Of a DNA stretch of 46,394 nt, positions 2,219-45,144 are shown piece by piece. Every line of letters starts with the position of its first letter. Positions within the stretch are counted from its first letter, which is position 1. The translations under genes and the position numbers were made by a program. The notes under the pieces are model-generated. The model saw only the letters and a list, made by a program, of their open reading frames with translations. It had not been told where the DNA came from and made no database searches. The stretch is from a virus. Location of the stretch: the UHGV virus genome UHGV-0390997; one strand, written 5' to 3'.

Positions 2219-2554
2219 ATGGCGTCAGACAAACCGATAACAGCTCAGCAGGCCGCCGACTTACTCATCGTGTCGGCGCGGGTAATCTACCGCCTGATTG
2301 AGTCAGGAGAACTCGCCGGCCGCAAGGTCGGCAACAAGTACAGAACGACCGAAGCGGCATGTATTGCGTATTTGTCATCCCCGCAGGAAACTAAACAAGC
2401 GAACGCGGGTGAGCATAAAGGAGATATTTTATGTCCATCACCCTCAGAGGCGGCATGTGGCACTGTCATTTCTTTACGCCGTCAGGGAAAAGAGTTAGGC
2501 GATCTCTTGGTACGGGGGACAAAAAGCAGGCGCAGGAGCTCCACGATAAGCTAA
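2219..2554 (+). CDS. xis: excisionase (HTH_17/AlpA-like DNA-binding protein)
   Basis: Start [32 protein letters not shown] with a GGAGGTGA RBS. It overlaps the 5' end of int, as lambda xis does. Confidence 0.65.
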
Positions 2555-3594
2555 AGGCTGAAGCATGGCGGGTTGACCAGATCGGCGACCTGCCTGTCAG
2601 AACCTTCGAAGAGTGCTGTATCCGGTGGCTGCGGGAGAAAGACCATAAGCGGTCGCTGGATGATGACAAAACCAAAATAGAGTTTTGGCTGCAGCATTTT
2701 TCCGGCCGCGACGTTTCGAAAATAACGGCGGAGGAAATTCACGAAGCCGTTAACGGGATGATCAACCGTAAGCACCTGCAGGTGTGGGAGAGTAAGCGCG
2801 ATGCCGCGTTGCGTAAGGGTAAGCCGGTTCCGGAGTACAAACCACGGCAGGTTTCTCAGGCGACGAAGGCGCAACACCTTTCTTTCATTCGATCCCTTCT
2901 CAGGGCCGCGGCGAATGACTGGGGCTGGATAAAAACGGCCCCAGTTATCAAAACCCGCAAGCCAATCAGTAAGCGGATACGGTGGCTGACCAGAGAAGAA
3001 GCTGAACGGTTGATCGAGTGCATGCCAGAGAGCATTAAGCCAGTAGTGATATTTGCACTGGCAACCGGCCTGCGCCGCTCAAACATCATCGGGCTTGAGT
3101 GGCAGCAGGTCGATATGCAGAGAAAGGTTGCATGGGTAAATCCGGAGAACGCAAAAGCGGGCAAGGCGATTGGCGTAGCTCTGAATGATACCGCATGCAG
3201 GGTATTAAGGGATCAGATAGGGAAGCATTCCCGGTGGGTGTTCGTTCACACCACGGCAAAACATCGACCGGATGGAACGCTGACGCCCGCGGTGAGAAAA
3301 ATGCGGGTGGATGACAATAACGCCTGGCGCGCCGGACTGAAAAAAGCGGGGATAGAGGATTTCCGTTTTCACGACCTCCGGCACACCTGGGCGAGCTGGT
3401 TAATCCAGTCCGGCGTCCCGCTTTCTGTTTTACAGGAAATGGGCGGATGGGAGAGCATCGAGATGGTGCGCCGATATGCTCACCTGGCACCGAACCATTT
3501 GACCGAGCACGCACGGAAAATTGACGCCATTTTTGGCGCTAGCGACACAAATACGACACAAGGGGGAAATCAGGCTGGACTAAAACTTGCGTAA
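2431..3594 (+). CDS. int: tyrosine integrase
   Basis: C-terminal catalytic motif [42 protein letters not shown] (R..HxxR..Y). Ends 16 nt before the attP core. Confidence 0.95.
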
Positions 3595-10084: not shown

Positions 10085-10551
10085 ACGGTGATTAGCCCGG
10101 GATAGTCTTTCGTGGTGTAAATGATGGAGTTGGCCAGCGTCAGCGGGTTAGTCTTTCCGGCGGTCACAGTGACGTTGCTGGCATCGGCGGAAATGTCGTT
10201 CACGTAAAGCGTCCAGTCTTTCAGGGTTGATGCATCGCCGATCGCATTCCACTGCTGATACAGGCATTTTATCGGCGTCATGCGCGCCGCCCCGCGCCAG
10301 CTTTTCAGTGTCTGCCGGACATGCTCCGTCGCGGCGACAAAAGTGATCGTCATTGATATGACCGCCGTTCCGTCCTGCGCTGGCTCGGTCACGCTGAACC
10401 GCGCAGGTTCGAATGAGTTTCCGCCAAACGTTGCCGGGCGAAACAGGTTATTGACCACCCGGTAATAACCAAACTCAGGGTGATAAAACTCCACCGTCTG
10501 TTTGATGTCGCTCGCCGGCCGGCGCTCCTTCCACTCTCTCAATGTCGGCAT
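10081..10551 (-). CDS. minor tail protein (L-position)
   Basis: Synteny (tape measure, M-like, L-like, K-like, J-like); ATGA-coupled. Confidence 0.55.
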   Translation of the reverse strand: MPTLREWKERRPASDIKQTVEFYHPEFGYYRVVNNLFRPATFGGNSFEPARFSVTEPAQDGTAVISMTITFVAATEHVRQTLKSWRGAARMTPIKCLYQQWNAIGDASTLKDWTLYVNDISADASNVTVTAGKTNPLTLANSIIYTTKDYPGLITV

Positions 10552-11042
10552 CAGTCGGCCCTCGGCATCACTTCGGTGATCAGGTAATCCAGCCAGTATC
10601 CATAGCCAGGCTGAGCCTCAACAATCCAGTCGTCATAGTCCTCGGTAATGTCCTCGATACCGTTGCTTATAACCGTTGCGGTCCAGGTGACAATGTTGCC
10701 GTTTTTGCTGGTCTGCACCGGCATGTCGACGAAATGCAGAGTCTGCTGCTGAACGCCCTGCGTATCACCCAGGTCGATCGGCATCTGGAACCAGTTGCGC
10801 CCGCGGTCGCAGTATGTCGGCGAGCGAAGCCACGACTTAAACCGCTCGGCCTGGGCCAGCGTGAATATCCACTGCAGCGTCCATGTCGCTTTAAGGTCCG
10901 TAGTGATCGGCGTGATTATCAATGGACCGACTGCCGTCTGCGTCGTCTGCCAGGCTGTATCCTGCGTCATGTTCTGATCGGCGCGCTGGGGAAGCGGCAG
11001 GAACGGAGGGTATTGAACTGTTGCCACGTTTCCTCCGGGCAT
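10551..11042 (-). CDS. minor (distal) tail protein (M-position)
   Basis: First gene after the tape measure; its start codon lies inside the 38-bp repeat. Confidence 0.55.
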   Translation of the reverse strand: MPGGNVATVQYPPFLPLPQRADQNMTQDTAWQTTQTAVGPLIITPITTDLKATWTLQWIFTLAQAERFKSWLRSPTYCDRGRNWFQMPIDLGDTQGVQQQTLHFVDMPVQTSKNGNIVTWTATVISNGIEDITEDYDDWIVEAQPGYGYWLDYLITEVMPRAD

Positions 11043-11071
11043 TAAAAAACCCGCCGGAGCGGGTTTGGTTT
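11034..11071. repeat. 38-bp direct repeat copy 1 (CTCCGGGCATTAAAAAACCCGCCGGAGCGGGTTTGGTT) abutting the tape-measure stop codon
   Basis: Identical to 13710..13747. Contains the hairpin CCCGCcggaGCGGG flanked by A6/T6, plus TAATGCCCGGAG with an in-frame ATG used by the downstream gene. Confidence 0.9.
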
Positions 11072-13703
11072 AGTAAGCACCTTGCGCTTTGCGACTTAGT
11101 CCAAATGTCTGCTGCATCTGAGAGGATACCGGGCCGCCTCTTTCCATATCGGTGATCAGCAAGTCCACCACTGCGCTACCGTCCTGCATATAGCCGTCGG
11201 CACTCTGTACGGTGGCACCTGTAGACTGGTTAATGACGTTCACCTGCACGCTAATCCCTCCTCCTGACTGCATATCCTTATTGCTGATGACCTTGCCGTT
11301 ATCGCCGGGGATCATGTACTGCTTGCCGGTGCTGGCCTGGTAAATCTCTGGTTTTCCGCCTTCACCCACCTGATACATTGAGCCAGCAGATACTGGGCCA
11401 CCATTTTTACGCTTGCCTGCCAATGCCATAACGCCAGCCATAGCGCCAAGACCGATAGCAACTGCACCACCCCATGAGGCTATAGAGGACATAATTGCAG
11501 CTGGAGTCCATGCTGCAGTGGTAGTGGCCGCCGCCGCGGTGCTTGCCGCTGTCTGAGTGGTTATCCCTGCGACTTGTGCGGCCGTAGTTGCTGCTATTGC
11601 AGTCTGCTGGGTGGTCGCACCCATAATCGCGTTTCTGGCCCACTCAACACCCATTTGAACGAATGCGTTTACAAGGCTGTTCAGAACGGTGCTGGCAAGT
11701 GATTGCGCTGCTTCCTGTGCGCTCATACTTCCTGTAATTATGCCGGTAAGGGCGTTAGAAGCATTACCAGCCAGAGCATCGAATGAAGCAGCTATGGCCT
11801 CATTGCCAAGGCTCTGATTCCGGTAAACCTCCCACATAGCAGCGGTTCTCTGCTGCTCATACTGAGTGTCAGCGGCTTTTTTCAGTGCTAAGGCCTGAGT
11901 GTGAGCGATAACCCCTTGCTGCTCGAACTGCTGAATCAGCGCCAACTCCTGCGCGTGCTGGTTGGCCAACTGCTGCACCGGGTCAACTTCACCAATTGCC
12001 TGCTGGGTGGGATTAACCACCTGCTGAGAGCGTATTTTGGCGAGGTTGGCCTGATGCTGCTGCTCCATCTGCTCAGTGGCTGCGTTGTACTCCTGCAGAT
12101 CAATCTTCCCGGCGTTCAGCGCAGCTTTCAGGTTCTGCATGGATTGAGCGTAGGATTTATTCTCCGCCTGTTCCGGAATGGCATTAAGCGCCTCTGTTAC
12201 CCCCTTCGCCGCTGCGGCTGCATCCCAGGCGGCTGCTGCGTATTTTCCTGCCTCCTGGATTTGAGCCTGAGTAGCTGATTTACCGAGAGACTGCTGCGCT
12301 CGCAATATCGCCTGCTCACGGCTCAATTCCTGCGTTGAGGCCGCTGCAAGCTCAGACTGCTGGCGAAGGTTTTCAAGTTTTTGGGCTATAGACTCAGCGG
12401 TGGAAGCAGACTGCTTCCCGGCTTTATCGCTTTCCTTCCTGGCCTCCGTAACCCGGTAGGTTTCGGCGTATTCGTCCTGCAGCGCTTTTATTCGCTTAGG
12501 ATCGGTCACACCGGCATCAGCAGCATCATATTGGGCCTGAAGCCTGGCTCGCGCCTCGCCTTCAAGTTTGGCCAACGCAAGACGGCGTTCAGAGTTTTGA
12601 ACCAGCTTCTTTGTTGCGGCATCATCGCCTTTGGTCGGCGGCGCATTAAACTGGTTGCTTCCTGCGTCCTTCTGAGCCTTTGCTCGAATGTGGGCTATTT
12701 CCCCCTCGATCTGCTTCAGCTGCACTGCTGCCTGCGCCCTTCTGGCCTGAAAAACTGAGTCAGTTTCATACCATCTCTGGCCATCTTTCAGCTCATTGTT
12801 CAGATCCTGCTGGAGCTTGATCAGCTTCGGCATTCTTGAAGAATCGCCGACATTGTTGTTGTAGTAATTGAGGTTATCCGCGACGCTCTGCATTAATCCT
12901 GCAAGTGTCGTGGTCAGGCCTATTGCCTGGTTCAGGTCGTTAATAGCATTTTTGAAGGCCACATCGAGGCTGTTCTTTGCGCGATCAATGCTGACCGGCA
13001 TTTTATCGAACTCTTCATTGACCGACTGCGACTGACGTTGAATGGCGTTCAGAGCATCCTGAGCCGTCAGTTTACCTTCCAGCATTCTCTTGCGAAGATC
13101 GCCGATTGATATCCCCAGCCCCGCTGCAATCTGGCGCGCAAGTTCAGGCATCTGCTCAAGAATAGAGTTGAACTCTTCAGCACGGACGATACCGCCAGAA
13201 ATAGACTGGCCGAACTGCCGCAATGCGTTTGCCATTTCCTCAGTAGAGGACCCACCGATCGTACCAATTTTTTGCAGTGTCGACGTCAACCCGAGAATTT
13301 GCGAGTTAGTGGCGCCAGTCTCCTTTAACGCTGTCGTCAGTGATTCCCATAACCTCTCAGTTTCTGACAGGCTATTACCTGTTTGAGCTGCGATTGCAGA
13401 CAGGGAGGCAAGTGTTTCTTTGGCCACGTCAATGCTGGGGCTTAGTCTGGCTATCCTCGCCTGTAGAGTAACCATCTCGTCGCCGATGGCGATAAGCTTC
13501 TTCGCTGCATCAATGGTGAAAGCTGCTGCAATGGCAACGCCAACTTTATTTAAAGCACCTTCGAAGCGCCCGGCAGATCGTGATGATTGTTCAAACTTGG
13601 CGTCCATTTGGTCAAGACGCTTATTAACCTGCTGCTGCGCCTGGATCAGGCCGGATACGTTAGCTTCAATGTCATAATAAATTTCACCTGCTTTTTCTGC
13701 CAT
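11070..13703 (-). CDS. tail tape measure protein (877 aa)
   Basis: Long coiled-coil/Ala-Gln-rich protein with a C-terminal hydrophobic/Gly-rich segment; position before the tail-tip genes. Confidence 0.9.
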   Translation of the reverse strand: MAEKAGEIYYDIEANVSGLIQAQQQVNKRLDQMDAKFEQSSRSAGRFEGALNKVGVAIAAAFTIDAAKKLIAIGDEMVTLQARIARLSPSIDVAKETLASLSAIAAQTGNSLSETERLWESLTTALKETGATNSQILGLTSTLQKIGTIGGSSTEEMANALRQFGQSISGGIVRAEEFNSILEQMPELARQIAAGLGISIGDLRKRMLEGKLTAQDALNAIQRQSQSVNEEFDKMPVSIDRAKNSLDVAFKNAINDLNQAIGLTTTLAGLMQSVADNLNYYNNNVGDSSRMPKLIKLQQDLNNELKDGQRWYETDSVFQARRAQAAVQLKQIEGEIAHIRAKAQKDAGSNQFNAPPTKGDDAATKKLVQNSERRLALAKLEGEARARLQAQYDAADAGVTDPKRIKALQDEYAETYRVTEARKESDKAGKQSASTAESIAQKLENLRQQSELAAASTQELSREQAILRAQQSLGKSATQAQIQEAGKYAAAAWDAAAAAKGVTEALNAIPEQAENKSYAQSMQNLKAALNAGKIDLQEYNAATEQMEQQHQANLAKIRSQQVVNPTQQAIGEVDPVQQLANQHAQELALIQQFEQQGVIAHTQALALKKAADTQYEQQRTAAMWEVYRNQSLGNEAIAASFDALAGNASNALTGIITGSMSAQEAAQSLASTVLNSLVNAFVQMGVEWARNAIMGATTQQTAIAATTAAQVAGITTQTAASTAAAATTTAAWTPAAIMSSIASWGGAVAIGLGAMAGVMALAGKRKNGGPVSAGSMYQVGEGGKPEIYQASTGKQYMIPGDNGKVISNKDMQSGGGISVQVNVINQSTGATVQSADGYMQDGSAVVDLLITDMERGGPVSSQMQQTFGLSRKAQGAY

Positions 13704-13709
13704 CGCATA

Positions 13710-13747
13710 CTCCGGGCATTAAAAAACCCGCCGGAGCGGGTTTGGTT
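13710..13747. repeat. 38-bp direct repeat copy 2, 7 nt upstream of the tape-measure start
   Basis: Exact 38/38 match to 11034..11071; also serves as a terminator-like hairpin after the moron gene ending at 13746. Confidence 0.9.
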
Positions 13748-14075
13748 ATTTACAGGCCTGTTGGCCTATATAATACGCTATTGAATTATCAACTATTGGA
13801 GACATGCCTTCGTCAGGCTTGGATGCTTTCATTTGTTCCAGCGTGTCCCCATCACCAAGATACTTCACCGTCCACGATGTGCAGTCATACAGGCGCTGTG
13901 AGTAGGATGTCCCTGACGGGCCCTCTCTCATGGTCGTGATGGTTGCCATGGAGCCGTTCAAGTTTTTATCAATGATGGTGTATTTGGCTTTCAAATCCGT
14001 TGGAATGCTGAATGTCGTAGCTGATACTGCGCTAAATGACATCAGTGCCAAGAGCGCAAATAAAGCCTTTTTCAT
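13746..14075 (-). CDS. secreted protein with signal peptide, possible PliC/MliC-family lysozyme inhibitor (moron)
   Basis: Signal peptide MKKALFALLALMSFSAVSA; the motif EGPSGTSY...W.VKYLGDGDT resembles the MliC/PliC S-x-SGA-x-Y...KGDEA signature. Homology is unconfirmed. Confidence 0.4.
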   Translation of the reverse strand: MKKALFALLALMSFSAVSATTFSIPTDLKAKYTIIDKNLNGSMATITTMREGPSGTSYSQRLYDCTSWTVKYLGDGDTLEQMKASKPDEGMSPIVDNSIAYYIGQQACK

Positions 14076-14179
14076 ATCCCTATCCCCACTGGTTGGTTTT
14101 GGACAGATTAGCAGGGATATATCAGGTTTCAATGCAACCAAAAGCAAAAAACCTCACCGAAGTGAGGTTGTCTCTGTAC

Positions 14180-14572
14180 TTAATCGGCCCAGCCAGATTT
14201 AGTATTGATAGCCGACTCTGCCATTGTGTACTTGGCTACTACATCGTCTTTAAACAGGATGGTAAGTTCTTTCTTGGTGCCGTTAGTTCCGTTATGGAAG
14301 AGGCCATAGAAAGGTATGAACGTAGTCCCGTTAACTTTCACTTTGGCGAAAGCGTACTTCCAGATCTCATTGCCACCGTCAGTATACGACACTGAATCCG
14401 GGGAGCCGAATGTCGTTTTAACCTCTGCCTTGGTAGTTTTCCCTTCCTGCAGTTTAGACTTTACGCTGATTTCTGTTTCCTTGCTGAGTTGCTGGTTTCC
14501 TGAGGAAGCGCAGCCTGCCAGAGTCAAAGCAATCGCAGTAGCGACTAAAATTTTCTTCATTTTTGTAATCAT
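14180..14572 (-). CDS. lipoprotein with SmpA/OmlA (BamE-like) domain (moron)
   Basis: Lipobox LTLAGC after a signal peptide. KAEVKTTFGSPDSV...EIWKY matches the BamE fold motif (G.T...V...LG.P.....W.Y). Confidence 0.5.
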   Translation of the reverse strand: MITKMKKILVATAIALTLAGCASSGNQQLSKETEISVKSKLQEGKTTKAEVKTTFGSPDSVSYTDGGNEIWKYAFAKVKVNGTTFIPFYGLFHNGTNGTKKELTILFKDDVVAKYTMAESAINTKSGWAD

Positions 14573-14637
14573 CCCTTTGGTATTGTTCGGACTAATCCTA
14601 ACAGGGATGCGGCCGACAAAAAACCCGCCATATTGTG

Positions 14638-14958
14638 CTATAGGAATGAGGTGATTTGCTCTCTTTTCTGCTTTTGGCTTTTAGCACCGTGCCATTCATG
14701 GAGCACTGTTCCATCGGTTGATTTAACGACGGCGATGTCCAACTCATGAAGGAATATTATTCCCTCGCAATCCTTATTCCCTGTCGTGCGCCATAAAACC
14801 ACAGGATGGGCGTTGTCATCATCACCTTTGCAGGGTGCCCTTACTCCGAGGGAAACGTCGTATACTTCAATTATGGACTGAGTCATGCCGCCATGCATCG
14901 TCCGGCCTGAATTCAAGGTGATATGAAGGTACATGATCATCTCCAGATGAAAGCCCAC
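14638..14958 (-). CDS. hypothetical protein (up to 106 aa; moron)
   Basis: ORF inside the moron island; no family recognised. Confidence 0.35.
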   Translation of the reverse strand: MGFHLEMIMYLHITLNSGRTMHGGMTQSIIEVYDVSLGVRAPCKGDDDNAHPVVLWRTTGNKDCEGIIFLHELDIAVVKSTDGTVLHEWHGAKSQKQKREQITSFL

Positions 14959-14994
14959 CGTGGCGGGCTATCTTGAATGGTAAGTTTAGGATGT

Positions 14995-15525
14995 TCACGC
15001 CTCAAATCCTGGGAGGTACATCTGAACCTCATCGACCACACGGGCGCGGGCTGCCATAAGCAGGCGCTTTCTTCCTCCGGCACCCCACTTGCCCATTCGA
15101 CTTGCGCATTGACTAACTTCCTTCGTTTCAGCGTTTATCACATGGTCGATTTTATTTAGGCGGGCCATGGCATCAAATCCCTGACGGACAAGAGACTGGA
15201 ATGTCTGATAAACGCGGATTTCAAACTCAGCACTGAGCCACGCAGCATAACGAATAGCGACGATCTCCAGAGCCCAGACGCCTTGATTCAAACCACCGTT
15301 AATAACCTTAACTGGTTGATTTTCCTCCAGAGTGCATTTTTGCATTCTGGCTAAAGTCTGAACAAAATATTTAACCTTTTTGGCGCGAAGAAACTGGCTT
15401 GGTCCCTGATTCTCTTTGGCTTGGCCGCTACATACCGCCGAAGCGTGCAGGTCATTCAGGCTGTAGCGCCCCTGGTCATCGACACGAACGGAGACGCCGT
15501 TCACTGATACCGTTGGATATTTCAT
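14995..15525 (-). CDS. KilA-N domain protein (176 aa)
   Basis: N-terminal VSVNGVSVRVDDQGRYSLNDLHASAV... is typical of the KilA-N DNA-binding domain of phage antirepressor/KilA proteins. Confidence 0.65.
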   Translation of the reverse strand: MKYPTVSVNGVSVRVDDQGRYSLNDLHASAVCSGQAKENQGPSQFLRAKKVKYFVQTLARMQKCTLEENQPVKVINGGLNQGVWALEIVAIRYAAWLSAEFEIRVYQTFQSLVRQGFDAMARLNKIDHVINAETKEVSQCASRMGKWGAGGRKRLLMAARARVVDEVQMYLPGFEA

Positions 15526-15693
15526 ATCGGCTTACCTTTTAGTGATGAACCTTGTCGCACAGGAAACCGGCCCACAGAAGGCACCGACAGCCAGCCGGCA
15601 TCCTCAAGGGTCATCCTGAAAGGTTCTGTGTTAAATGCGCGTGCGAAGCGCGTCAGAAGTGAGTGGGCATTAGCCGCTCACGAACAAACGGAT

Positions 15694-15720
15694 ATAAAAA
15701 AGCCCCGCGGATGCGAGGCT
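15694..15720 (-). terminator. rho-independent terminator after gene 15742..16455
   Basis: Minus-strand GCCTCGCATCCGCGGGGC followed by TTTTTTAT. It is near-identical to the hairpin at 30964..30992. Confidence 0.6.
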
Positions 15721-15741: not shown

Positions 15742-16455
15742 TTATTTCTTCGTGCGGCTTGTCATGGATCGCTCCTGCTCCATAATTGCCTGCCAGCGGC
15801 GATCGTCTTCGTCCATGACCGTGTCGTACTCTTCGCGCGTGAAGCCGTTCTGATTGGGGTATTTGGCGTTAATCATCATGGCGAACTCTGTCATCGTGAG
15901 GTTCTCGGCCTCTTCCCGGCTTATGCCGAAATGGTTGCGGGCCGCCATGATGTAGTCAGCTGCGCGGAATTCTGCGGTTGTCTCATTCGTTTCGTAACGC
16001 TGCAGCTTACGCACCTTCGCTTTGCCGATGATGCCGTGCATCATCAGGTTTTGCGCGACAATGACCATGCTTTCCGGCGGCATGCTTCCCGGGCGCCACA
16101 CGAAGCCACGCTTGCGTGATTTCCCCGGTTTCATCCAGCCAACCAGATCGCCGATATCGTCGTCACAGCAGGCTGTCAGTACCGTATGCGCGGCCATGAC
16201 CGCTTTGCGTGACAGGAGGCCGCTTTGCATAAACCGCAGGACGCAATCAGGAAGGCGGCTGTACTCATCGCTGATATAAGCCTCGGCTGCGCGCTGTGCG
16301 AATGGTGTCGTCTCGTCATTGCACAGGTCATAGAACGCCTGGACAATTTCCTCTGGCTCACCGATTCGCGCCATGTTGCGAAAAGACGGACGGAAAAAGA
16401 ATTCCCGGTCACCGGTACCGATAACGCATTCGCCTAATTCTTTAATCGGGGTCAT
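15742..16455 (-). CDS. hypothetical protein in the G/GT tail-assembly-chaperone position (237 aa)
   Basis: Located between the major tail protein and tape measure genes; assignment is by synteny only. Confidence 0.35.
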   Translation of the reverse strand: MTPIKELGECVIGTGDREFFFRPSFRNMARIGEPEEIVQAFYDLCNDETTPFAQRAAEAYISDEYSRLPDCVLRFMQSGLLSRKAVMAAHTVLTACCDDDIGDLVGWMKPGKSRKRGFVWRPGSMPPESMVIVAQNLMMHGIIGKAKVRKLQRYETNETTAEFRAADYIMAARNHFGISREEAENLTMTEFAMMINAKYPNQNGFTREEYDTVMDEDDRRWQAIMEQERSMTSRTKK

Positions 16456-16523: not shown

Positions 16524-17288
16524 TTAACTGATAGTGACCGCGCAGGATGCAGAAGTGATCGTGACTGGAGTCGCGGAAGAATCGGTAACTTCACAGGTAT
16601 AGGCCCCGGCATCACCGGAAACAGCGCTGGCCTTGTTGAAGGTCGCCGTTGTTTGCCCGCTGACAACCGTTCCGTCTTTCTTCCAGACATAGGTGTAAGG
16701 CGAAGTGCCACCCTCAACCACGACCGACATATTCAGAGCCGATCCGGCCGCTACGCTCTTGGTCGTCGGCAGGTTAGTGGTAAACGCCAGCGCCGGCGGA
16801 GCGACTTCAAATACCACGGTGTCTGCATCAGCCACTTTCCATTCCCCGGAGAAGGTCGAAATATCCGTGGTGCCGAAATCACCAGACCAGGAGGTAGTGT
16901 TGAAGTACCCCATGATATAAGTTCCAGCGTCTTCACCAGTAAAGTCGAAACGGACCCAGATTGTCGGCTGACGGCCGGCCTGCACTTCATCGAAAATATA
17001 TTTCGAGATGGCAATAGCGCCGACTTCCGTCGTCTTGTCTTTCTTGCGGAACTCACCTTCTCCTGAGATGGTGAAGTCCATATTGTTGACCAGGTTCTCA
17101 ACCAGACCTTTCGTATCGTCAGCCTCAGAGGTGACGGTATTCATGGAGTAGTCAAAGCCCTTGGTGGTCATGGCGCCGAGTCGCTTCCATTCGGAAAGCG
17201 CAGGAACCGTATCAGCACAGCCAAAAGCCATGCGGAGCACGGCCACCTTACCAATCAGCTTGCCGGTGTCATTAGCGCAGCCTTGCAT
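16524..17288 (-). CDS. major tail protein with C-terminal Ig-like (Big_2-type) domain (gpV-like)
   Basis: 254 aa with a GAGAGG RBS. The C-terminal ~90 aa carries Ig-like motifs (TYVWKKDGTVVSGQ...GAYTCEVTD). Confidence 0.85.
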   Translation of the reverse strand: MQGCANDTGKLIGKVAVLRMAFGCADTVPALSEWKRLGAMTTKGFDYSMNTVTSEADDTKGLVENLVNNMDFTISGEGEFRKKDKTTEVGAIAISKYIFDEVQAGRQPTIWVRFDFTGEDAGTYIMGYFNTTSWSGDFGTTDISTFSGEWKVADADTVVFEVAPPALAFTTNLPTTKSVAAGSALNMSVVVEGGTSPYTYVWKKDGTVVSGQTTATFNKASAVSGDAGAYTCEVTDSSATPVTITSASCAVTIS

Positions 17289-18095: not shown

Positions 18096-18111
18096 AATCA
18101 GACTCCAGACG

Positions 18112-18135
18112 TAAAAAAGGCCGCCGTAGCGACCT
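18112..18135 (-). terminator. terminator hairpin after the HNH-AP2 gene
   Basis: Minus-strand GGTCGCtacgGCGGCC followed by TTTTTT. Confidence 0.45.
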
Positions 18136-18146
18136 TGTTTTGTGAA

Positions 18147-18689
18147 TTATTGGGCTCGCCCATGATTTTCATGGTAGCCATACTTAAATTCTGCTGACTT
18201 TCTTGCAGCAACAGCATCAATCAGGCTCTCATAATATCCGAGGTGAATCTGCCCACCCGCATGGTTAATCGAAGCAACCCAACGATTATCCCTTAAGCGC
18301 CAATGTACCCCGCAAACGCCAGAGATATTATTTTTATGCCTTGCCGAATTCCTTCCATTACCAACCCTGTCGACATCCCTTAAATTAATTAGGCGATTAT
18401 CGTTTCTGACACCATTGATGTGGTCAATGAAGCCCTCTGGATAGGCTCTGTAAGATAGCGCCCAAGCTATACGATGAGCCTTCATAAGCCTACCTTGAAT
18501 ACCAATCTCTAAATATCCATTGATGTTCAAGCAACCTGCTTCTTTCCCGCAAAATCTAGAGTGCCAAGTATTGAATACCCTTTCGGTTGAAAAATGAATC
18601 CTTGGTCTAGGTTTCCAGGTAATAATTCCAGTTTTTGGGTTATAACTGAAACATTGATGTAAAAAATCGATATCAGGGTCTTTAGCCAT
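18147..18689 (-). CDS. HNH homing endonuclease with C-terminal AP2 DNA-binding domain
   Basis: HNH_3-like KAHRIAWAL...HINGVRNDNRLINLR followed by an AP2-like GVHWRLRDNRWVASINHAGGQIHLGYYESLIDAVAARKSAEFKYG. Markedly AT-rich versus its neighbours. Probable start MAKDPD with a GTGAGG RBS. Confidence 0.8.
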   Translation of the reverse strand: MAKDPDIDFLHQCFSYNPKTGIITWKPRPRIHFSTERVFNTWHSRFCGKEAGCLNINGYLEIGIQGRLMKAHRIAWALSYRAYPEGFIDHINGVRNDNRLINLRDVDRVGNGRNSARHKNNISGVCGVHWRLRDNRWVASINHAGGQIHLGYYESLIDAVAARKSAEFKYGYHENHGRAQ

Positions 18690-18788
18690 AACAAACCTCA
18701 CAGTAGGTTTCACAGAGAGAGGTGCGCGGCAACAGAGTCTGTGTTCTCTGCTTTCGACTGGCCGGTCTAGCCGCGCCATTACATTTTA

Positions 18789-30963: not shown

Positions 30964-30992
30964 ATAAAAAAGCCCCGGCGGATGCCGAGGCT
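30964..30992 (-). terminator. tR'-like terminator downstream of the Q-dependent late promoter
   Basis: Minus-strand GCCTCGGCATCCGCCGGGGC followed by TTTTTTAT, ~90 nt downstream of a candidate PR'. Confidence 0.6.
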
Positions 30993-31039: not shown

Positions 31040-31100
31040 AGTTAAGGCAGCATATCAAAGTAGACTCAAATATGACGCATTTAATTGACTTTTGCAATAC
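31040..31100 (-). promoter_or_regulatory. candidate late promoter PR' / Q-utilisation region at the 3' end of Q
   Basis: Minus-strand TTGCAA followed by 17 nt then CATATT. Confidence 0.35.
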
Positions 31101-31767
31101 CTTGCTGCGAAAAAGTCGCCTTTTGTTGTGAACGTGATCGAGAAACAGAGAGTAATGCCTGGCTATCAAGTTTCTGGTAGATGTCCATCATAGCCTGCCA
31201 GTAATCCGAATAATTGTGGCACCAGTTATCTGGCTTTATTCCCACCATAGCGGCGGGAGAGTAATGATGCCCTCTACCGGTTATTTCCTGCTTTGTATTT
31301 TGAGCCGCCAGCCAGATAAGCTGACGCAGGCGATCTACCGTTTTCTTTGCGATACGCGCACCGGCCAGCTTCTCGCTGAATTGCTCCCATGCCCACCGTG
31401 TGATCGTCTCCTGGTGCTCCCAGCGGATATTGTCGCTGTAGTTCCAGAGCAGCCACGCTTTCTGGTAGTCTTCAAGTGATAGGACAGCGCGGCGCCAGCT
31501 CGCCGTCGAATACTCAACGGGCAGAACGAGGGCAATTGCAGAGCCTTTCGCGCGGGACTGGCTGCCAGCCATTGGCGGGCCTTCCGGGTTCACCATGCGC
31601 TGCTTATCTTTGTCGAATACCTTTTTCCTTCCCCGGCTACGCGCCGTAGCGGTGAATTGCGCGTTCTCTGCAAAGGCTACCAGTTGCCCTTTCGTCGCGC
31701 CGCTCAGATCGGCGGTGGCCACTATCAGCTGCTGGCGAACATACTGGAGGTATTGAGTGTTAATCAT
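31081..31767 (-). CDS. Q: antitermination protein Q
   Basis: 228 aa between the nin region and lysis genes; Cys/His-containing C-terminal region. Confidence 0.7.
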   Translation of the reverse strand: MINTQYLQYVRQQLIVATADLSGATKGQLVAFAENAQFTATARSRGRKKVFDKDKQRMVNPEGPPMAGSQSRAKGSAIALVLPVEYSTASWRRAVLSLEDYQKAWLLWNYSDNIRWEHQETITRWAWEQFSEKLAGARIAKKTVDRLRQLIWLAAQNTKQEITGRGHHYSPAAMVGIKPDNWCHNYSDYWQAMMDIYQKLDSQALLSVSRSRSQQKATFSQQGIAKVN

Positions 31768-32131: not shown

Positions 32132-32352
32132 GCGGCCTCCGCCATAAGCTGGTCATACGTCAGGTAAAGGCCCCAGCAGCTAAACAGCACATGCGCCTTA
32201 ACGACGGCTATTTCCTCGTTGTTCCACCGGCAGAACCATCTGATCGCGCCCATAACCTCGCTATCTATCTGATGCGATCCGTTCAGGTGGATGGGATAGA
32301 CCACGTCATCAAAAACAGCGGCAGTGGACATTGGGTATTGGATTTTGCTCAT
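32128..32352 (-). CDS. hypothetical nin-region protein (74 aa)
   Basis: ATGA-coupled ORF. Confidence 0.4.
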   Translation of the reverse strand: MSKIQYPMSTAAVFDDVVYPIHLNGSHQIDSEVMGAIRWFCRWNNEEIAVVKAHVLFSCWGLYLTYDQLMAEAA

Positions 32353-32996
32353 GCGGCCTCCTGATGGCGGGCGCGGCGCTTCTCCAGCGCGCGGGCTCTG
32401 CGGGTGAATATGGATTTGATGCGCTGCAGGTAAGGAATATCGAACCGGCGCGGCTCGTTATCAGCCTCAAGGCGCTCTACGCGGTCCAGCCCAATGCGAT
32501 CAATAAGGTGAATCCGGTACTCAACAGCGTTACCGCTCAATTGGCGGTTGCAGCGGGTACAGGCGGAGTGGACATTGAATACGTTGAACTTCAGGTGCGA
32601 CGCCGCGCCGCGGGAACGGTAATGGCTGGCATCAATGGCGCTCCCGGTCAGGTAGTTGCTCTTTCCAATCAGCGGAGCACCGCAACTGGCGCAGGGCTTA
32701 CCTTCATCACGAATGCGAATGTACCGGTTAAAGGCTGACTGAGCCTCTTTATCCCATTGGGCCTTTGTCTTGAATGACTCGCGCTTGGCCCGGCGACGTT
32801 GGCGTCCCTCCTTCTCGGATTGGCGCTGTAGCTTCACCGCCCTGGCCTTAGCCGATTCACGGGCTTTTGCTGTCTGTTTTTTGGCGATCGCGCTGGCGCA
32901 TTCAAAGCAGCAAACTACCTGTCCCTCCCGGGCGGGATGGAACCATTCGCGGCAGTGGGCGCATTTACGTCGTGCTGGTTTACGCATACGCACCAC
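32349..32996 (-). CDS. ninG: NinG/Rap recombination-associated protein
   Basis: N-terminal [13 protein letters not shown]...CCFECA zinc-ribbon plus CASCGAPL...HYRSRGA...CTRCN, matching lambda NinG. Confidence 0.85.
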
Positions 32997-33817: not shown

Positions 33818-34414
33818 TCACCCCGCAAAGCTCAGCAGCTGACTGGCGGCGTTTTCAACCTCAGCCGGCGAGTGGAATTTGCGACGCAGAATGTAGTTCC
33901 ACAGCACATTCAGCACTGATTTGTAGACGCCGTTAAACTGGCTGTCGTCCATGCTGGCGAAGGAGATCGACTTTGCGACACGATGATGGCTGCCGTCAGG
34001 CATCTGGTATTCGTCGTAAAAGCCAGCCTGAATGGTTGCCCACTCGCGGAAGGATTCGAAGTGCTTCAGCAGCGCCATATCGCGGGAACGAGAAATACCG
34101 ACAGAGGAGAGATACATCTCCGCGGCGTTCTGGAGCGCAGCGCGCTGATCGAAGTCGGATGAGAGGAAGTCGATAAACCCGGATATGAGGTTGCGCTCCG
34201 CGGGCTCAATGAGACCACCGGAAGGCGTCCAGTAGTGATACCCGAGAGTCAGAAGCTTGAAAAACCTCTTGTGGAATGCGTAATTCCGGGGCTTGCGGAA
34301 CTCACCGCAAAGCAGTTGCCCTACGGGGATAAGTTGCAGGTATTCGCTGGTTCCCGGCTCTGCGGGAATCAGTACGTTTTGATAACTCTTCTCAAATTGC
34401 AGTGTTTGCGCCAT
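33818..34414 (-). CDS. DUF1367-like nin-region protein
   Basis: 198 aa; position and conserved N-terminal pattern only. Confidence 0.4.
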
Positions 34415-38985: not shown

Positions 38986-40007
38986 TCGAGCACCCCGTAA
39001 ATCCAGTCAGTGTTATTTAGGTCTGCTTTGGGCTTAGTGGATGCATTTCCTCCGGATTGCTTACCACGCTGAATATCAAGCTGAGTCCACTTCTCTCGGA
39101 GCTTGGCTGGGCTAAGCACGTTTCCAGACCAGAAACCGTCATGACATGCCCAGCGGAAAAGCAAGCACATATCGCGATGAGTGCGGCCGTCACGCTCACG
39201 CATCAGGCGGATATCATTAGCCCATCCAGCAAAGTTCGGTTTTTTTGCAGATGGGGCGATGGTCTTCACCACATCAAACATCCATTCAGCAGCGGTGAGG
39301 TCTTCAGATGTTCCCCACTTTGAGCCGCTTTGTATTGCAGCATCAGGCTTAGCAAGTGGGGGATTAGTTATTTGCTTGTCAGAGGATTCGCCAGAATTCT
39401 CGGACGTAGATCTTTTAATGTTTTTATTCTTGTTATTACCTTCTTGTTCATGTTGTGCGGTTGTTTGTGCGCCATCATGTGCGCCATCATGTGCGGGTGC
39501 CGCCTTCAAACCAGCGCCATTACTGGCCCATCCATGTGCGCAAGTATGTGCGCCATCATGTGCGGCTTCATGTGCGGGTAAATTGTCTATTTTTTGAGCA
39601 TATTCAGCAAAATGTGTGATGGTAATCACTCTCCCTTTTTGCTTCTCCCCTTCGATAGAAATCATCCCTTCGCGCACAAAAACAGCCAGCATTCTCTCCA
39701 CTGAATCGCGACTTGTAGGATTCCCTTTCCGGTCGCAAAGCTGCAGCCCTAAATCGGATGCTGTGACCACCAGTTGACCGGGCAGCAATGACCACTCATG
39801 ACCTTTGAAAGTCGCTCTGAATGGCTGACGAGCAGCATTAAGCAGCAGGTTTTCCCACAGGGTTCTGAGGTACACATCTTTTGCCCAGGACTGCTTGAGA
39901 ACGCTCCGGTACAACGGGATGTAGCCAGATTTCTGGTTTTCCATCCGGTTGCTCCTGAATTGCCCCGGATCGGCGCCGGGAAACTTGAGTATTTCTGCGG
40001 TATTCAT
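38982..40007 (-). CDS. O: replication initiator O with internal origin
   Basis: Position upstream of P (ATGA-coupled). The central His/Ala/Gly-rich repeat and Lys/Asn-rich segment are encoded by the iterons and AT-rich region. Confidence 0.8.
   Translation of the reverse strand: MNTAEILKFPGADPGQFRSNRMENQKSGYIPLYRSVLKQSWAKDVYLRTLWENLLLNAARQPFRATFKGHEWSLLPGQLVVTASDLGLQLCDRKGNPTSRDSVERMLAVFVREGMISIEGEKQKGRVITITHFAEYAQKIDNLPAHEAAHDGAHTCAHGWASNGAGLKAAPAHDGAHDGAQTTAQHEQEGNNKNKNIKRSTSENSGESSDKQITNPPLAKPDAAIQSGSKWGTSEDLTAAEWMFDVVKTIAPSAKKPNFAGWANDIRLMRERDGRTHRDMCLLFRWACHDGFWSGNVLSPAKLREKWTQLDIQRGKQSGGNASTKPKADLNNTDWIYGVLE
39395..39577 (-). promoter_or_regulatory. lambda-type replication origin inside O: 8 iterons (A)TGTGCG(G/C) in two clusters of four at ~11-12 bp spacing, followed (in gene direction) by an AT-rich stretch
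   Basis: Iteron copies start at 39455, 39466, 39479, 39490, 39535, 39547, 39559 and 39570. AT-rich region 39395..39445. Confidence 0.7.
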
Positions 40008-41390: not shown

Positions 41391-41470
41391 TTAATATACA
41401 TATTGTATTCTTTAGTCGCAAGGTAAATATACAAATTGTGTCTCGAAGAAAAATATACAACTTGTATCAT
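41391..41470. promoter_or_regulatory. OR region: three operators ATACA-N3-TGTAT (OR1-3) with divergent PR/PRM
   Basis: ATACAtatTGTAT (41397..41409), ATACAaatTGTGT (41431..41443), ATACAactTGTAT (41455..41467). Confidence 0.75.
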
Positions 41471-41476
41471 TTGGGT

Positions 41477-42136
41477 ATGAGCATGAAATGGTATGACTTA
41501 GCCAAGTCCCTTATGAAAACAAAGGGCATTAACCAGGAAGAACTGGCCGAGCACCTTGGGATAACTAAAGGTGCGGTTAGCCATTGGCTGAATGCAAGGA
41601 GAGAGCCCAGCCTTGAAGATATAGCCAACATTCTTCACTTCCTTGGAAAGCAACATTTTTCTGTTGGGGCCAACGGCATGATTGTTGATGAAAATCTGAA
41701 GGGGGATGTTGAGTACATAGGCCCTTATGAAGCCGGGAAAAAGTATCCGGTTCTGAGCAGCGTACAGGCGGGATCATGGAGGGAAGCCGTTGAGCCATAC
41801 TCTCTGAAGGACGTGGATGTTTGGCTTGAATCTAACGCGCATATCCAGGGTGAAGCATTTTGGTTATTGGTAGAGGGAGAATCTATGACAGCCCCTGCCG
41901 GCCTTAGCATACCTGAGGGCACGTATGTTCTTTTCGATACAGGCAGGGAGCCAATCAACGGAAGCCTTGTTATTGCAAAGCTATCGGAATCAAACGAGGC
42001 GACATTCAAAAAGTTGATAATTGATGGCGGCCAGAAGTATCTGAAGGGATTGAACCCACAATGGCCAATGGTACCCATCAACGGAAACTGTCGAATCATT
42101 GGGGTGGCAGTAGAAACTAAGCTTCGCTTGGTTTGA
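41477..42136 (+). CDS. cI: CI repressor (HTH + LexA-like S24 peptidase domain)
   Basis: N-terminal HTH ([22 protein letters not shown]). C-terminal autocleavage domain with Ala-Gly site and Ser/Lys (GESMTAP...FKKL). Confidence 0.9.
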
Positions 42137-44339: not shown

Positions 44340-44494
44340 GCGCAGCGGAAAAATGGGATGACGAAAAATTCATTCAGCTGATGAGCGATGCAATTGGCGA
44401 ACGTGATTTCGACGATGAAGAACCAGTAAACCTTTCTGCGGAACGGCAGAACCCGGTGATCAGCTGGGATGAATTTGCGGGGAATTTTCAATGA
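44336..44494 (+). CDS. hypothetical acidic protein (52 aa)
   Basis: ATGA-coupled on both sides. Confidence 0.4.
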   Translation: MSAAEKWDDEKFIQLMSDAIGERDFDDEEPVNLSAERQNPVISWDEFAGNFQ

Positions 44495-45144
44495 CGGAGA
44501 AAAAAGTTTATGCGGCCATCAGCTCGGTAGCCGGTGAGCTGGCAGAGAAAGGTATCAGCAAGGCCAGAAAACAGGGAAGCCAGGTCAACTACGCATTCCG
44601 TGGGATTGATGACGTTTACAACGCTCTGGCCCCTGCTCTGGTTAAGCACAAGTTGCTGATCCTCCCACGGTGTACTGAGCGGTCATGCTGTGAGCGAACC
44701 AGCAAAAATGGTGGGGCGTTGTTTTATGTGACCGTCCGGGCAGAGTTCGACTTTGTCAGCACGGAGGACGGCAGCATTCATACCGTCGTCACCTACGGCG
44801 AGGCGATGGACAGCGGCGATAAAGCAACGAACAAGGCCATGTCGATTGCGTACAAATATGCGGCCTTTCAGGCGTTCTGCATCCCTACAGAAGAGACGAC
44901 GGTGGACCCTGACTATGAGGCTCACCAGGTAAGGCCCGCCGACGCAGATCAGATTCTCGCTGATTTCACTGCTTACGCAGGCTCAGAGAACGATCCGAAG
45001 GCCCTCCAGGATAACTACGGGAAAGCATGGAACGGCCTTCATGGCTTCCCTGAGCATCAGACGAAGTGCAGGGACGTTACCGGCATCCGCCTGAGAGAGC
45101 TGAAACAAGCCGCAAGTGGTGGCAGCCATGAAAGTAACAGCTGA
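44491..45144 (+). CDS. erf: ERF-family single-strand annealing recombinase
   Basis: NYAFRGIDDVYNALAPALVKH...GEAMDSGDKATNKAMSIAYKYAAFQAFCIPTE matches the P22 Erf core. Confidence 0.8.
   Translation: MTEKKVYAAISSVAGELAEKGISKARKQGSQVNYAFRGIDDVYNALAPALVKHKLLILPRCTERSCCERTSKNGGALFYVTVRAEFDFVSTEDGSIHTVVTYGEAMDSGDKATNKAMSIAYKYAAFQAFCIPTEETTVDPDYEAHQVRPADADQILADFTAYAGSENDPKALQDNYGKAWNGLHGFPEHQTKCRDVTGIRLRELKQAASGGSHESNS

What the first reader, a model, noticed from the sequence alone, without database searches (positions are those of the whole stretch)
11034..13747. Identical 38-bp hairpin/start-site repeats precisely bracket the tape measure gene
CTCCGGGCATTAAAAAACCCGCCGGAGCGGGTTTGGTT occurs twice (11034..11071 and 13710..13747). 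One copy ends at the tape measure stop codon; the other sits 7 nt before its start. On the coding strand each copy gives a GC hairpin followed by T6 (terminator or attenuator-like) and then TAATGCCCGGAG. In the downstream copy the ATG is the real start of the next gene. In the upstream copy it opens an 11-codon mini-ORF that terminates inside the tape measure start. The arrangement could drive cassette exchange of the tape measure gene by homologous recombination, or act as paired attenuators and translational-coupling elements controlling the tape measure : distal tail protein ratio.
Basis: seen in the sequence. Interest (0 to 1): 0.65.

Follow-up and report, generated by a model that had tools for sequence, protein, structure and literature searches.

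The report
Terminator–start-site cassettes flanking tape measure
The two identical 38-base repeats are real, but they are two copies of a common phage spacer that stops transcription with a hairpin and then supplies the next gene's ribosome-binding site. This spacer marks the slots where accessory genes are inserted ahead of tail genes, so it is ordinary operon punctuation, not a device specific to the tape measure gene.

Summary
It runs from the stop codon of the preceding gene to the Shine-Dalgarno sequence of the next gene, on both sides of the 877-aa tape measure (TMP) gene.

Each copy is a GC hairpin with a UNCG loop, a U6 tract, then AAUGCCCGGAG. GGAG serves as the ribosome-binding site, and 166 of 171 related elements have a start codon 3-10 nt downstream.

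The element belongs to a very widespread cassette family found in more than 120 viral contigs and 92 bacterial species. It lies in front of tail genes, mostly the TMP gene or the gene after it, and behind highly variable accessory genes such as lipoproteins and superinfection-exclusion proteins. HK97's archetypal gp15 moron has the same layout at the same slot.

Homology with relatives breaks at the cassette, but what is swapped is the accessory gene upstream. The TMP gene is mosaic internally. Bracketing pairs in other genomes are usually not identical (2 of 66), so the identity here is incidental. The ATG inside the repeat is not the start of the next gene, and the mini-ORF is not conserved.

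Most likely function: a terminator that insulates prophage-expressed inserts, plus a portable translation start. A role as a recombination linker is possible but unproven.

The parts
13710..13747 (-). Upstream cassette copy. Stem CCCGC 13740..13736, loop TCCG 13735..13732, stem GCGGG 13731..13727, with AAA/TTT extension. T-run 13726..13721, AATG 13720..13717, CCC 13716..13714, SD GGAG 13713..13710. A 6-nt spacer precedes the TMP ATG at 13703.
11033..11070 (-). Downstream cassette copy, identical in sequence. Hairpin 11066..11047, T-run 11049..11044, SD GGAG(G) 11036..11033. A 5-nt spacer precedes the GTG start at 11027. Base 11070 is the last base of the TMP stop codon.
11070..13703 (-). Tape measure protein gene, 877 aa (PF20155 TMP_3; phrog_1107 and phrog_1538).
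10551..11027 (-). First tail-tip (distal tail) gene, phrog_384. The most likely start is GTG 11027. The ATG at 11042 inside the repeat is probably not used.
13746..14075 (-). Accessory (moron-like) gene encoding a 109-aa protein with a signal peptide (phrog_13843). Its stop codon abuts the upstream cassette. GC is low.
14150..14169 (-). Separate terminator-like hairpin (AACCTCAC-TTCG-GTGAGGTT plus a T-run) after the lipoprotein gene. It forms the left boundary of the block shared with Kp4856-1.
14180..15525 (-). Accessory gene cluster: KilA-N protein 14995..15525, a 106-aa ORF 14638..14958, and a lipoprotein (BamE-like, weak Cor match) 14180..14572. GC is 43-50%, against 55-58% in the flanking tail genes.
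15701..15720 (-). Terminator-like hairpin (CCTCGC type) after the DUF6246 gene (15742..16455). It is the left edge of the accessory-gene slot between the tail tube/chaperone genes and the TMP gene.
18103..18140 (-). Third, degenerate cassette (71% identical): hairpin, then TTTTTTACGTCTGGAG, then 8 nt, then ATG of the tail-completion gene. It lies directly after an inserted, low-GC HNH endonuclease gene (18147..18779).
31081..31767 (-). Q-like late antiterminator gene (phrog_304). It is the basis for inferring that late transcription reads through the cassettes.
30966..30991 (-). tR'-like terminator between the Q gene and the lysis genes: hairpin GCCTCGGC-ATCC-GCCGGGGC plus T6.
44491..45144 (+). 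ERF-family single-strand annealing recombinase. Together with NinB (33818..34414) and NinG (32349..32996), it gives the phage a short-homology recombination system.

Best explanation
Each 38-mer is an independent copy of a widespread intergenic cassette made of an intrinsic (Rho-independent) terminator followed directly by a translation-initiation region. The cassette punctuates the tail operons of temperate phages.

Shown by sequence and comparison:
- The hairpin and U-tract lie just after a stop codon on the coding strand.
- GGAG lies 5-6 nt before the next start codon.
- The cassette sits between a variable accessory gene (upstream) and a conserved tail gene (downstream).
- The upstream copy closes a low-GC accessory cluster (KilA-N, lipoprotein, secreted protein). 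That cluster is inserted in the same slot as HK97's gp15 moron, between the tail tube/chaperone genes and the TMP gene.
- The downstream copy marks the slot between the TMP gene and the tail tip genes. This slot is empty in this phage and filled with extra ORFs in relatives.

Inferred:
- In the lysogen, the hairpin stops transcripts that start in or upstream of the accessory genes. This keeps the TMP and tail-tip genes silent.
- After induction, Q-modified RNA polymerase reads through. The SD, possibly helped by the U-tract, then gives the next tail gene a context-independent start.
- The exact identity of the two copies has no function of its own. It follows from both belonging to the same local variant of the family (ACCAAACCCGCTCCGGCGGG).
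For: Structure: the hairpin is the minimum-free-energy fold in both contexts. When related elements are retrieved by the downstream TIR alone (the translation-initiation region, ATGCCCGGAGAAAAGNATG), 118 of 119 are directly preceded by a GC hairpin plus T-run. These comprise 59 different hairpin sequences, including compensatory stems such as CCCGC/GCGGG, CCACC/GGTGG, CCGGC/GCCGG and CCTGC/GCAGG.

SD: 166 of 171 cassette occurrences have an ORF of at least 30 aa starting 3-10 nt after GGAG.

Position: downstream genes fall into a few tail-gene clusters. These are TMP 61, distal tail 33, fibre 21, baseplate hub 14 and gpM-like 13. Upstream genes fall into 80 mostly singleton clusters. They include Cor and superinfection-immunity families and lipoproteins.

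Mosaicism: homology with 8 relatives starts at the cassette at both positions.

Empty versus filled slot: in phages 2b LV-2017 and ST13-OXA48phi12.5, extra genes with their own hairpin sit between ...GCGGGTTTTTTAATG and CCCGGAGGAAACGTG.

Other support:
- The accessory cluster is low in GC.
- HK97 gp15 has an annotated terminator with the same layout immediately before its TMP gene. It is described as the first moron, lying between the chaperone and TMP genes (PMC3594210).
- A Q antiterminator gene and a tR'-like terminator are present.
- Bracketing pairs are normally non-identical.
Against: - No termination, read-through or translation was measured.
- No convincing sigma-70 promoter was found for the accessory genes. 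The scan gave 11 sites against 15 expected by chance, and none lies in the 14075..14150 gap. Prophage-state transcription of these genes is therefore assumed.
- The downstream copy follows the TMP gene directly, with no accessory gene to insulate. About 20% of cassettes lie between two structural genes. Moron insulation therefore cannot be the whole story.
- Simple terminator function does not explain why nearly the same 35-nt string recurs across bacterial orders.
Confidence: 0.7

Rival explanations
1. Recombination-linker reading, which does not exclude the best explanation. The conserved cassette would be the vehicle by which accessory genes, and potentially the TMP gene, are moved between slots and between phages. 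The mechanism would be short-homology recombination, as proposed for PeSL cassettes in T4-like phages. The two identical copies would then be substrates for the phage's ERF/NinB/NinG system.
For: - The same accessory-gene families, each with the cassette, occur in front of different tail genes. Lipoprotein family U3 precedes 6 different downstream genes. Families U11 and U19 also precede several. The window's own phrog_13843 family lies 16 times before a TMP gene and once before a gpM-like gene.
- The same TIR precedes 13 unrelated protein clusters.
- Hairpin halves and SD halves reassort, and the insert in phage 2b LV-2017 is flanked by TTTTTAATG on both sides.
- The T6A/T7 polymorphism occurs at both copies in all four combinations within one lineage.
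- The phage encodes ERF, NinB and NinG.
- The PeSL precedent is described in PMC2839356.
Against: - No deletion junction (accessory gene-cassette-distal tail) and no duplication junction was found in viral contigs, although 18 contigs carry the parental junction.
- There is no concerted evolution of bracketing pairs.
- Only 57 of 366 cassettes have a second terminator within 1.5 kb upstream. Most accessory genes are therefore not flanked by two cassettes.
- Breakpoints at gene boundaries are also expected from illegitimate recombination followed by selection.
Confidence: 0.3
2. The two copies would act as paired partial terminators (attenuators) and translational-coupling elements, including the mini-ORF. 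Together they would set the ratio of TMP to distal tail proteins during lytic growth.
For: - Terminator-like cassettes recur just before TMP genes, at the border between high-copy tube genes and low-copy TMP and tip genes. This holds in many phages, including ones without lambda-type regulation.
- In 43 of 66 bracketing pairs a single TMP-sized ORF fills the interval.
Against: - This phage has a Q antiterminator and a tR'-like terminator, so late transcription is expected to ignore intrinsic terminators (inference from lambda).
- The ATG and the mini-ORF are not conserved.
- No alternative antiterminator fold is predicted, and no Rfam leader family matches above threshold.
- The pairs are not matched.
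Confidence: 0.12
3. The repeat is a recent local duplication or a chance convergence of two generic terminators, with no shared history or role.
For: - CCCGC-UNCG-GCGGG plus a T-run is a very common terminator. More than 120 viral contigs carry it, and two thirds have other 3' flanks.
- Most close relatives have a 37/38 match rather than 38/38.
Against: - Identity extends beyond the hairpin into AACC on the 5' side and AATGCCCGGAG on the 3' side.
- CCYGGAG follows 26% of hairpin-selected elements, against about 0.07% expected by chance.
- The arrangement is conserved at both positions across TMP genes only 22% identical to each other.
Confidence: 0.04

Closest known systems
Moron terminators of lambdoid phages, archetype HK97 gene 15 (Juhala et al. 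2000; Cumby et al. 2012, PMC3594210)
   Same: - The slot is the same, between the tail chaperone and TMP genes.
- The layout is the same. HK97 reads CCCGC-TATCAA-GCGGG-T8-ATG-GGTGA-AAAT-ATG(TMP), with the terminator annotated in the record.
- In both, the accessory gene has deviating composition.
- Further hairpin, T-run and ATG junctions precede HK97 genes I and J.
   Different: - The 3' flank here is the CCCGGAG subtype, and it is repeated identically on the other side of the TMP gene.
- No promoter was identified for the accessory genes here.
- About 20% of the cassettes lie between two structural genes with no moron.
- The literature states that moron accretion is not thought to depend on conserved flanks (PMC2839356), whereas these flanks are conserved.
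PeSL cassettes (promoter-early stem-loops) of T4-like phages (Arbiol et al. 2010, PMC2839356; Comeau et al. 2014, PMC4122927)
   Same: - Both are short, conserved, repeated intergenic regulatory cassettes containing a terminator stem-loop.
- Both end with the SD and start codon of the next gene.
- Both lie next to variable ORFs and at indel boundaries between close relatives.
   Different: - PeSLs contain a strong sigma-70 early promoter and span about 100 bp. This cassette has no promoter and spans about 35 bp.
- PeSL recombination was demonstrated through mini-circles. Here none was detected.
- The hosts are temperate phages' late tail operons, not the early hyperplastic regions of lytic phages.
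Lambda-type late regulation (Q antiterminator, pR', tR')
   Same: The phage has a Q-like gene followed by a strong hairpin plus T-run before the lysis genes. One of the tail-operon terminators is 95% identical to it over 19 nt (family D11).
   Different: The cassettes lie far inside the late operon and are coupled to ribosome-binding sites. Whether Q-modified polymerase reads through them was not tested.
Intra-operon attenuators that set gene dosage (partial terminators inside polycistronic operons)
   Same: An intrinsic terminator sits between co-oriented genes, at the border between proteins needed in high and low copy number.
   Different: No alternative structure and no regulatory leader is present. 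The antiterminator in this phage argues against a dosage role here.

Membership tests
Intrinsic (Rho-independent) terminator | GC-rich stem-loop immediately followed by a U-tract on the transcribed strand | tested here: met
   The 8-bp stem includes 5 G-C pairs, the loop is UCCG, and U6 follows. The fold energy is -13.8 kcal/mol, and the same fold is predicted in both contexts.
Intrinsic (Rho-independent) terminator | Structure, rather than sequence, conserved in relatives (compensatory stem changes) | tested here: met
   59 distinct hairpins lie ahead of the same TIR, with stems including CCCGC/GCGGG, CCACC/GGTGG, CCGGC/GCCGG and CCTGC/GCAGG. In total 118 of 119 occurrences have a hairpin plus T-run.
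Intrinsic (Rho-independent) terminator | Measured transcript 3' ends or reduced downstream transcription | not testable with these tools
   No transcriptome data are available here.
Moron (Juhala et al. 2000) | Extra gene(s) lying between two genes that are adjacent in related phages | tested here: met
   The genes between DUF6246 and the TMP gene differ or are absent among relatives. The slot between the TMP and distal tail genes is empty here and filled in L002-L004 and L006-L008.
Moron (Juhala et al. 2000) | Own terminator at the 3' end | tested here: met
   Hairpins with T-runs lie at 14150..14169 and 13721..13743.
Moron (Juhala et al. 2000) | Own promoter | tested here: inconclusive
   The consensus scan found no site at 9/12 or better in the gaps upstream of the accessory genes. 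The total number of sites is below the shuffle expectation.
Moron (Juhala et al. 2000) | Nucleotide composition different from neighbouring genes | tested here: met
   GC is 43-50% across 13750..15500, against 55-58% in the flanking tail genes.
Moron (Juhala et al. 2000) | Expression from the repressed prophage | not testable with these tools
   No expression data are available.
PeSL regulatory cassette | Composite of a sigma-70 promoter and a stem-loop | tested here: not met
   The 38-mer leaves no room for -35 and -10 elements, and no promoter-like site overlaps it apart from a weak match inside the TMP start.
PeSL regulatory cassette | SD and start codon of the downstream gene at the 3' end; repeated copies next to variable ORFs | tested here: met
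PeSL regulatory cassette | Recombination between copies (deletions, mini-circles) | tested here: inconclusive
   Viral contigs contain 0 deletion and 0 duplication junctions, against 18 parental junctions. The sample is too small, and it is biased toward intact phages.
Transcription attenuator or leader RNA | Alternative (antiterminator) structure or a match to a curated leader family | tested here: not met
   Only the terminator fold is predicted. The best Rfam matches fall far below the gathering scores, for example Trp_leader at 25.7 against 41 bits. Loop-to-SD complementarity (CUCCGG/CCGGAG) does not covary.

The most novel reading that the evidence does not exclude
The hairpin-U7-AUGCCCGGAG(-AAAAGNAUG) cassette would be a portable 'terminator plus translation start' linker. 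It would spread horizontally among the tail operons of temperate phages of Gammaproteobacteria and beyond. It would supply the conserved flanking homology through which accessory genes, and occasionally TMP alleles, are inserted, deleted and moved between slots. That would make it a temperate-phage counterpart of T4 PeSLs. It would also bear on how morons are acquired, a question the literature calls mysterious (PMC4378225) and attributes to flank-independent illegitimate recombination (PMC2839356).
Probability: 0.3. Interest if true: 0.65.

Novelty: new member of a known kind. Interest (0 to 1): 0.35.

Why it matters
For this window, the result explains the repeat, corrects the start of the distal-tail gene to GTG 11027, and defines the accessory-gene slots on both sides of the tape measure gene.

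More broadly, a roughly 35-nt terminator-plus-ribosome-site string recurs almost unchanged in front of unrelated tail genes in prophages of many bacterial orders. It is always coupled to a terminator. This is a simple searchable marker for accessory-gene insertion slots, where superinfection-exclusion and lysogenic-conversion genes are found.

If the conservation reflects recombination rather than convergence, it would give morons the conserved flank they were thought to lack. The cassette may also be a compact natural insulator part for engineering phage operons.

Tried and rejected
1. SD sequestration or an antiterminator. The loop region CUCCGG is complementary to the SD CCGGAG, but loops vary (UUCG, UACG, UCCA, UCAG) with no compensating SD change, and the terminator fold dominates. 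Rejected.

2. Mini-ORF or upstream ATG as a functional start. The ATG is replaced by ATT, ACG or ATC in many relatives, including ahead of the same distal-tail gene. Rejected.

3. TMP cassette exchange. Breakpoints inside the TMP gene (about 11640 and 11405) and variable accessory genes explain the mosaicism better.

4. Repeat-mediated TMP deletion or duplication. No such junctions were found in viral contigs. The test has low power.

5. Concerted evolution or gene conversion between bracketing copies. Mean edit distance was 6.55 within genomes and 6.78 between genomes (permutation p=0.13). No support.

6. Known RNA families. Nothing reached threshold in Rfam.

7. Promoters for the accessory genes. 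None was convincing.

8. Literature search for the motif string. Only unrelated eukaryotic primer hits were found.

9. Two-cassette flanking of every accessory gene (the PeSL topology). Only 57 of 366 cases fit.
Full report
**Observation.** The 38-mer occurs exactly twice in the window, at 11033..11070 and 13710..13747. No other match appears with up to 3 mismatches, and none appears in shuffled sequence. An independent repeat search returns the same pair plus a third copy at 18103..18140 with 71% identity.

All genes in this region are on the minus strand. On that strand the repeat reads AACCAAACCCGCTCCGGCGGGTTTTTTAATGCCCGGAG. It spans the intergenic space from the stop codon of the preceding gene to the Shine-Dalgarno (SD) sequence of the next gene. 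Only the spacer between the SD and the start codon differs: TATGCG-ATG for the tape measure (TMP) gene and GAAAC-GTG for the next gene.

**Context.** The window is a complete lambdoid temperate Klebsiella phage. Closest records include Kp4856-1, vB_Kpn_RAH1 and ST11-VIM1phi8.1.

The gene order on the minus strand is as follows:
- major tail protein, 16524..17288
- DUF6246, 15742..16455
- a terminator-like hairpin
- KilA-N protein
- a 106-aa ORF
- a lipoprotein
- another hairpin
- a secreted 109-aa protein (phrog_13843)
- the cassette
- TMP, 11070..13703
- the cassette
- distal tail protein (phrog_384)
- minor tail protein
- NlpC/P60 protein
- TipJ
- tailspike

The block from 13750 to 15500 has 43-50% GC, against 55-58% in the tail genes around it. 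The phage encodes a Q-like antiterminator, followed by a tR'-like hairpin plus T-run ahead of the holin and endolysin genes. It also encodes ERF, NinB and NinG recombination functions.

**What each copy is.** The predicted fold in both contexts is the hairpin AAACCCGC-UCCG-GCGGGUUU, followed by more U residues. This is the anatomy of an intrinsic terminator on the coding strand.

GGAG lies 6 nt before the TMP ATG and 5 nt before a GTG at 11027. In a set of 171 related elements from relatives and viral contigs, 166 have an ORF of at least 30 aa starting 3-10 nt after GGAG. GGAG is therefore a ribosome-binding site.

The ATG inside the downstream copy is very unlikely to be the start of the next gene. 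Relatives annotate the GTG as the start. Phage ST13-OXA48phi12.5 has AATCCCCGGAGGAAACGTG ahead of the same gene, with no ATG.

The 11-codon mini-ORF at the upstream copy exists but is not conserved. When relatives are selected by the hairpin alone, the triplet is frequently ATT or ACG.

**A family, not a pair.** Three kinds of scan show this.

1. Scan for the right hairpin arm plus flank (GGCGGG-T5-N0-3-ATGCCCGGAG). It also hit 92 species-representative bacterial genomes, covering Enterobacterales, many Pseudomonas, Halomonas, Marinobacter, Oceanospirillum, Delftia and others. The element almost always lies a few bases before a TMP-like or other tail gene.

2. BLAST of the 38-mer against GenBank phages. 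This found the same arrangement right before the TMP genes of Marinobacter phage PS3 and 'Synechococcus' phage Ssp-JY37. It also found it before the baseplate-hub gene of Pantoea phage AH07, and between two small genes of the lytic Pseudomonas phage LIT1.

3. Scan with only the translation-initiation region, or TIR (ATGCCCGGAGAAAAGNATG). This returned 119 occurrences, of which 118 are directly preceded by a GC hairpin and T-run. There are 59 different hairpin sequences, including stems that differ by compensatory changes. The same TIR precedes 13 unrelated protein clusters.

Conversely, the hairpin alone is generic. Of 111 hairpin-selected elements, 29 carry the CCYGGAG flank, which is hundreds of times more than chance but far from all. 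In an independent sample of other terminator-to-gene junctions, 13 of 71 carry it. Most of the rest start with a U-run followed by AU(G/U) and a G-rich SD, as in HK97.

**Where it sits.**
- Genes downstream of the cassette form a few clusters, all tail genes. The counts are TMP 61 (plus 9 of a second type), distal tail 33, fibre or spike 21, baseplate hub 14, gpM-like 13, and smaller numbers of gpJ, tail completion and wedge.
- Genes upstream form 80 clusters, mostly singletons. Many have lipoprotein or signal-peptide N-termini. They include Cor superinfection-exclusion and superinfection-immunity families.
- About 60% of cassettes lie immediately before a TMP gene or before the gene that follows one.
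- Sixty-six non-redundant loci carry two cassettes 1.5-6 kb apart. In 43 of them a single ORF of 836-1173 aa fills the interval. For 39 of them the ORF after the upstream cassette is homologous to the window's TMP, at 22-100% identity over its first 320 aa.

Bracketing of the TMP gene is therefore a recurrent architecture.

**Mosaic boundaries.** Against eight relatives, homology to the window begins at the cassette at both positions. Upstream of it the DNA is unrelated or carries different ORFs.

The slot between the TMP gene and the distal-tail gene is empty here and in RAH1 and ST11-VIM1phi8.1. In Kp4856-1, phage 2 LV-2017, ST101-KPC2phi6.1 and Kp4864-1 it holds extra ORFs.

In phages 2b LV-2017 and ST13-OXA48phi12.5, the TMP-linked hairpin is followed by inserted genes that bring a different hairpin (TGCCGC-AGCC-GCGGCA). 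That second hairpin in turn abuts the distal-tail gene's CCCGGAGGAAACGTG. In 2b LV-2017 the insert is flanked by TTTTTAATG on both sides.

The TMP gene itself is mosaic at internal breakpoints near 11640 and 11405. What is exchanged at the cassettes is therefore the accessory DNA, not the TMP gene as a unit.

The same accessory families occur with the cassette in front of different tail genes. Lipoprotein family U3 precedes six different genes. The window's phrog_13843 family lies 16 times before a TMP gene and once before a gpM-like gene.

**Is the identity meaningful?** Twenty genomes share the window's upstream junction. In those where both copies can be read, the copies are usually 37/38 identical (T7 against T6A), and some have a different downstream hairpin. 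All four combinations of the T7/T6A polymorphism occur.

Across the 66 bracketing pairs, copies within a genome are no more alike than copies from different genomes. Mean edit distance is 6.55 against 6.78 (permutation p=0.13), and only 2 pairs are identical.

No junction expected from recombination between the two copies was found in viral contigs. This covers both TMP deletion and duplication. That sample has little power.

The exact identity in this window therefore looks incidental.

**Comparison with the known.** HK97 gene 15, the first gene called a moron, lies between the tail chaperone and TMP genes (PMC3594210). Its record annotates a terminator whose sequence and layout match this class: CCCGCTATCAAGCGGGTTTTTTTTATGGGTGAAAATATG, with the last ATG being the TMP start. 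Similar junctions precede HK97 genes I and J. The window's pair therefore belongs to a known kind.

What appears less known is the degree of sequence conservation of the CCCGGAG subtype and its obligatory coupling to a terminator. The held literature contains no mention of the motif. Arbiol et al. state that morons are not thought to depend on conserved flanks, in contrast to their PeSL cassettes (PMC2839356). Cazares et al. call the acquisition mechanism mysterious (PMC4378225).

The cassette fails the PeSL definition because it has no promoter. It shares the stem-loop, the SD, the start codon and the association with variable ORFs.

**Mechanism.** Shown: the anatomy of the hairpin, U-tract and SD, the position at boundaries between accessory and tail genes, and the structural conservation of the hairpin.

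Inferred from lambda biology:
- In the lysogen the hairpins stop transcripts coming from the accessory genes, so the TMP and tail-tip genes stay silent.
- After induction, Q-modified polymerase that has already passed the tR'-like terminator reads through them.

Inferred from design logic: placing a stable hairpin and U-tract directly ahead of a fixed SD gives the next tail gene a start region independent of whatever is inserted upstream.

Unresolved:
- Whether the cross-order conservation reflects horizontal spread and recombination or convergence.
- Why the U-tract is so often followed by AU(G/U).
- Whether cassettes between two structural genes have a dosage role in phages that lack antitermination.

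**Verdict.** The start-codon, mini-ORF, matched-pair and TMP-cassette ideas are not supported.

The feature is ordinary operon punctuation of the moron type. The wider family property described above deserves a dedicated survey.

Noticed in passing
window 18103..18779 (- strand): A low-GC HNH endonuclease gene (18147..18779) is inserted among the head-tail connector genes. It is followed by a degenerate third copy of the cassette (hairpin, TTTTTTACGTCTGGAG, 8 nt, ATG of the tail-completion gene). A homing-endonuclease insert therefore uses the same 3' punctuation as the morons.
   Followed up: partly
window 30966..30991 and 15689..15720 (- strand): A tR'-like terminator lies downstream of the Q gene. 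It is 95% identical over 19 nt to the terminator after the DUF6246 gene in the tail operon. Both are followed by TTTTTTAT(G/A)TCCG.
   Followed up: partly
window 11405..11640: The tape measure gene is mosaic internally. Several relatives share the same two breakpoints (about 11640 and 11405), which flank a variable segment. TMP lengths among relatives range from 856 to 1148 aa.
   Followed up: partly
window 39442..39579: Five iteron-like direct repeats (CATCATGTGCGCC motif, 12-nt register) lie inside the replication-gene region. They probably mark the phage origin of replication.
   Followed up: no
window 13746..14572 (- strand): Two envelope-targeted accessory proteins lie next to the TMP gene. 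One is a lipoprotein with a weak BamE-domain and Cor-like match (14180..14572). The other is a signal-peptide protein of phrog_13843 (13746..14075). Both are candidate superinfection-exclusion or lysogenic-conversion genes.
   Followed up: partly
L238 (Pseudomonas phage LIT1, FN422399) 2501..2541: The same hairpin, T-run and GCCCGGAG cassette occurs between two small hypothetical genes of a lytic N4-like podovirus. The cassette is therefore not restricted to prophage tail operons.
   Followed up: no
L285 (Gordonia sp.), L286 and L267 (Verrucomicrobiota MAGs), from the scan: The exact cassette was found in genomes far outside Proteobacteria. The flanking sequence looks proteobacterial-phage-like, so contamination or mis-binning is possible. 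This was not checked.
   Followed up: no
window 2431..3594, 41438..42136, 44491..46229: The window also carries an integrase, an S24/HTH CI-like repressor, an ERF recombinase and an MT-A70 methyltransferase. It holds an entire temperate phage genome with no tRNA genes.
   Followed up: partly
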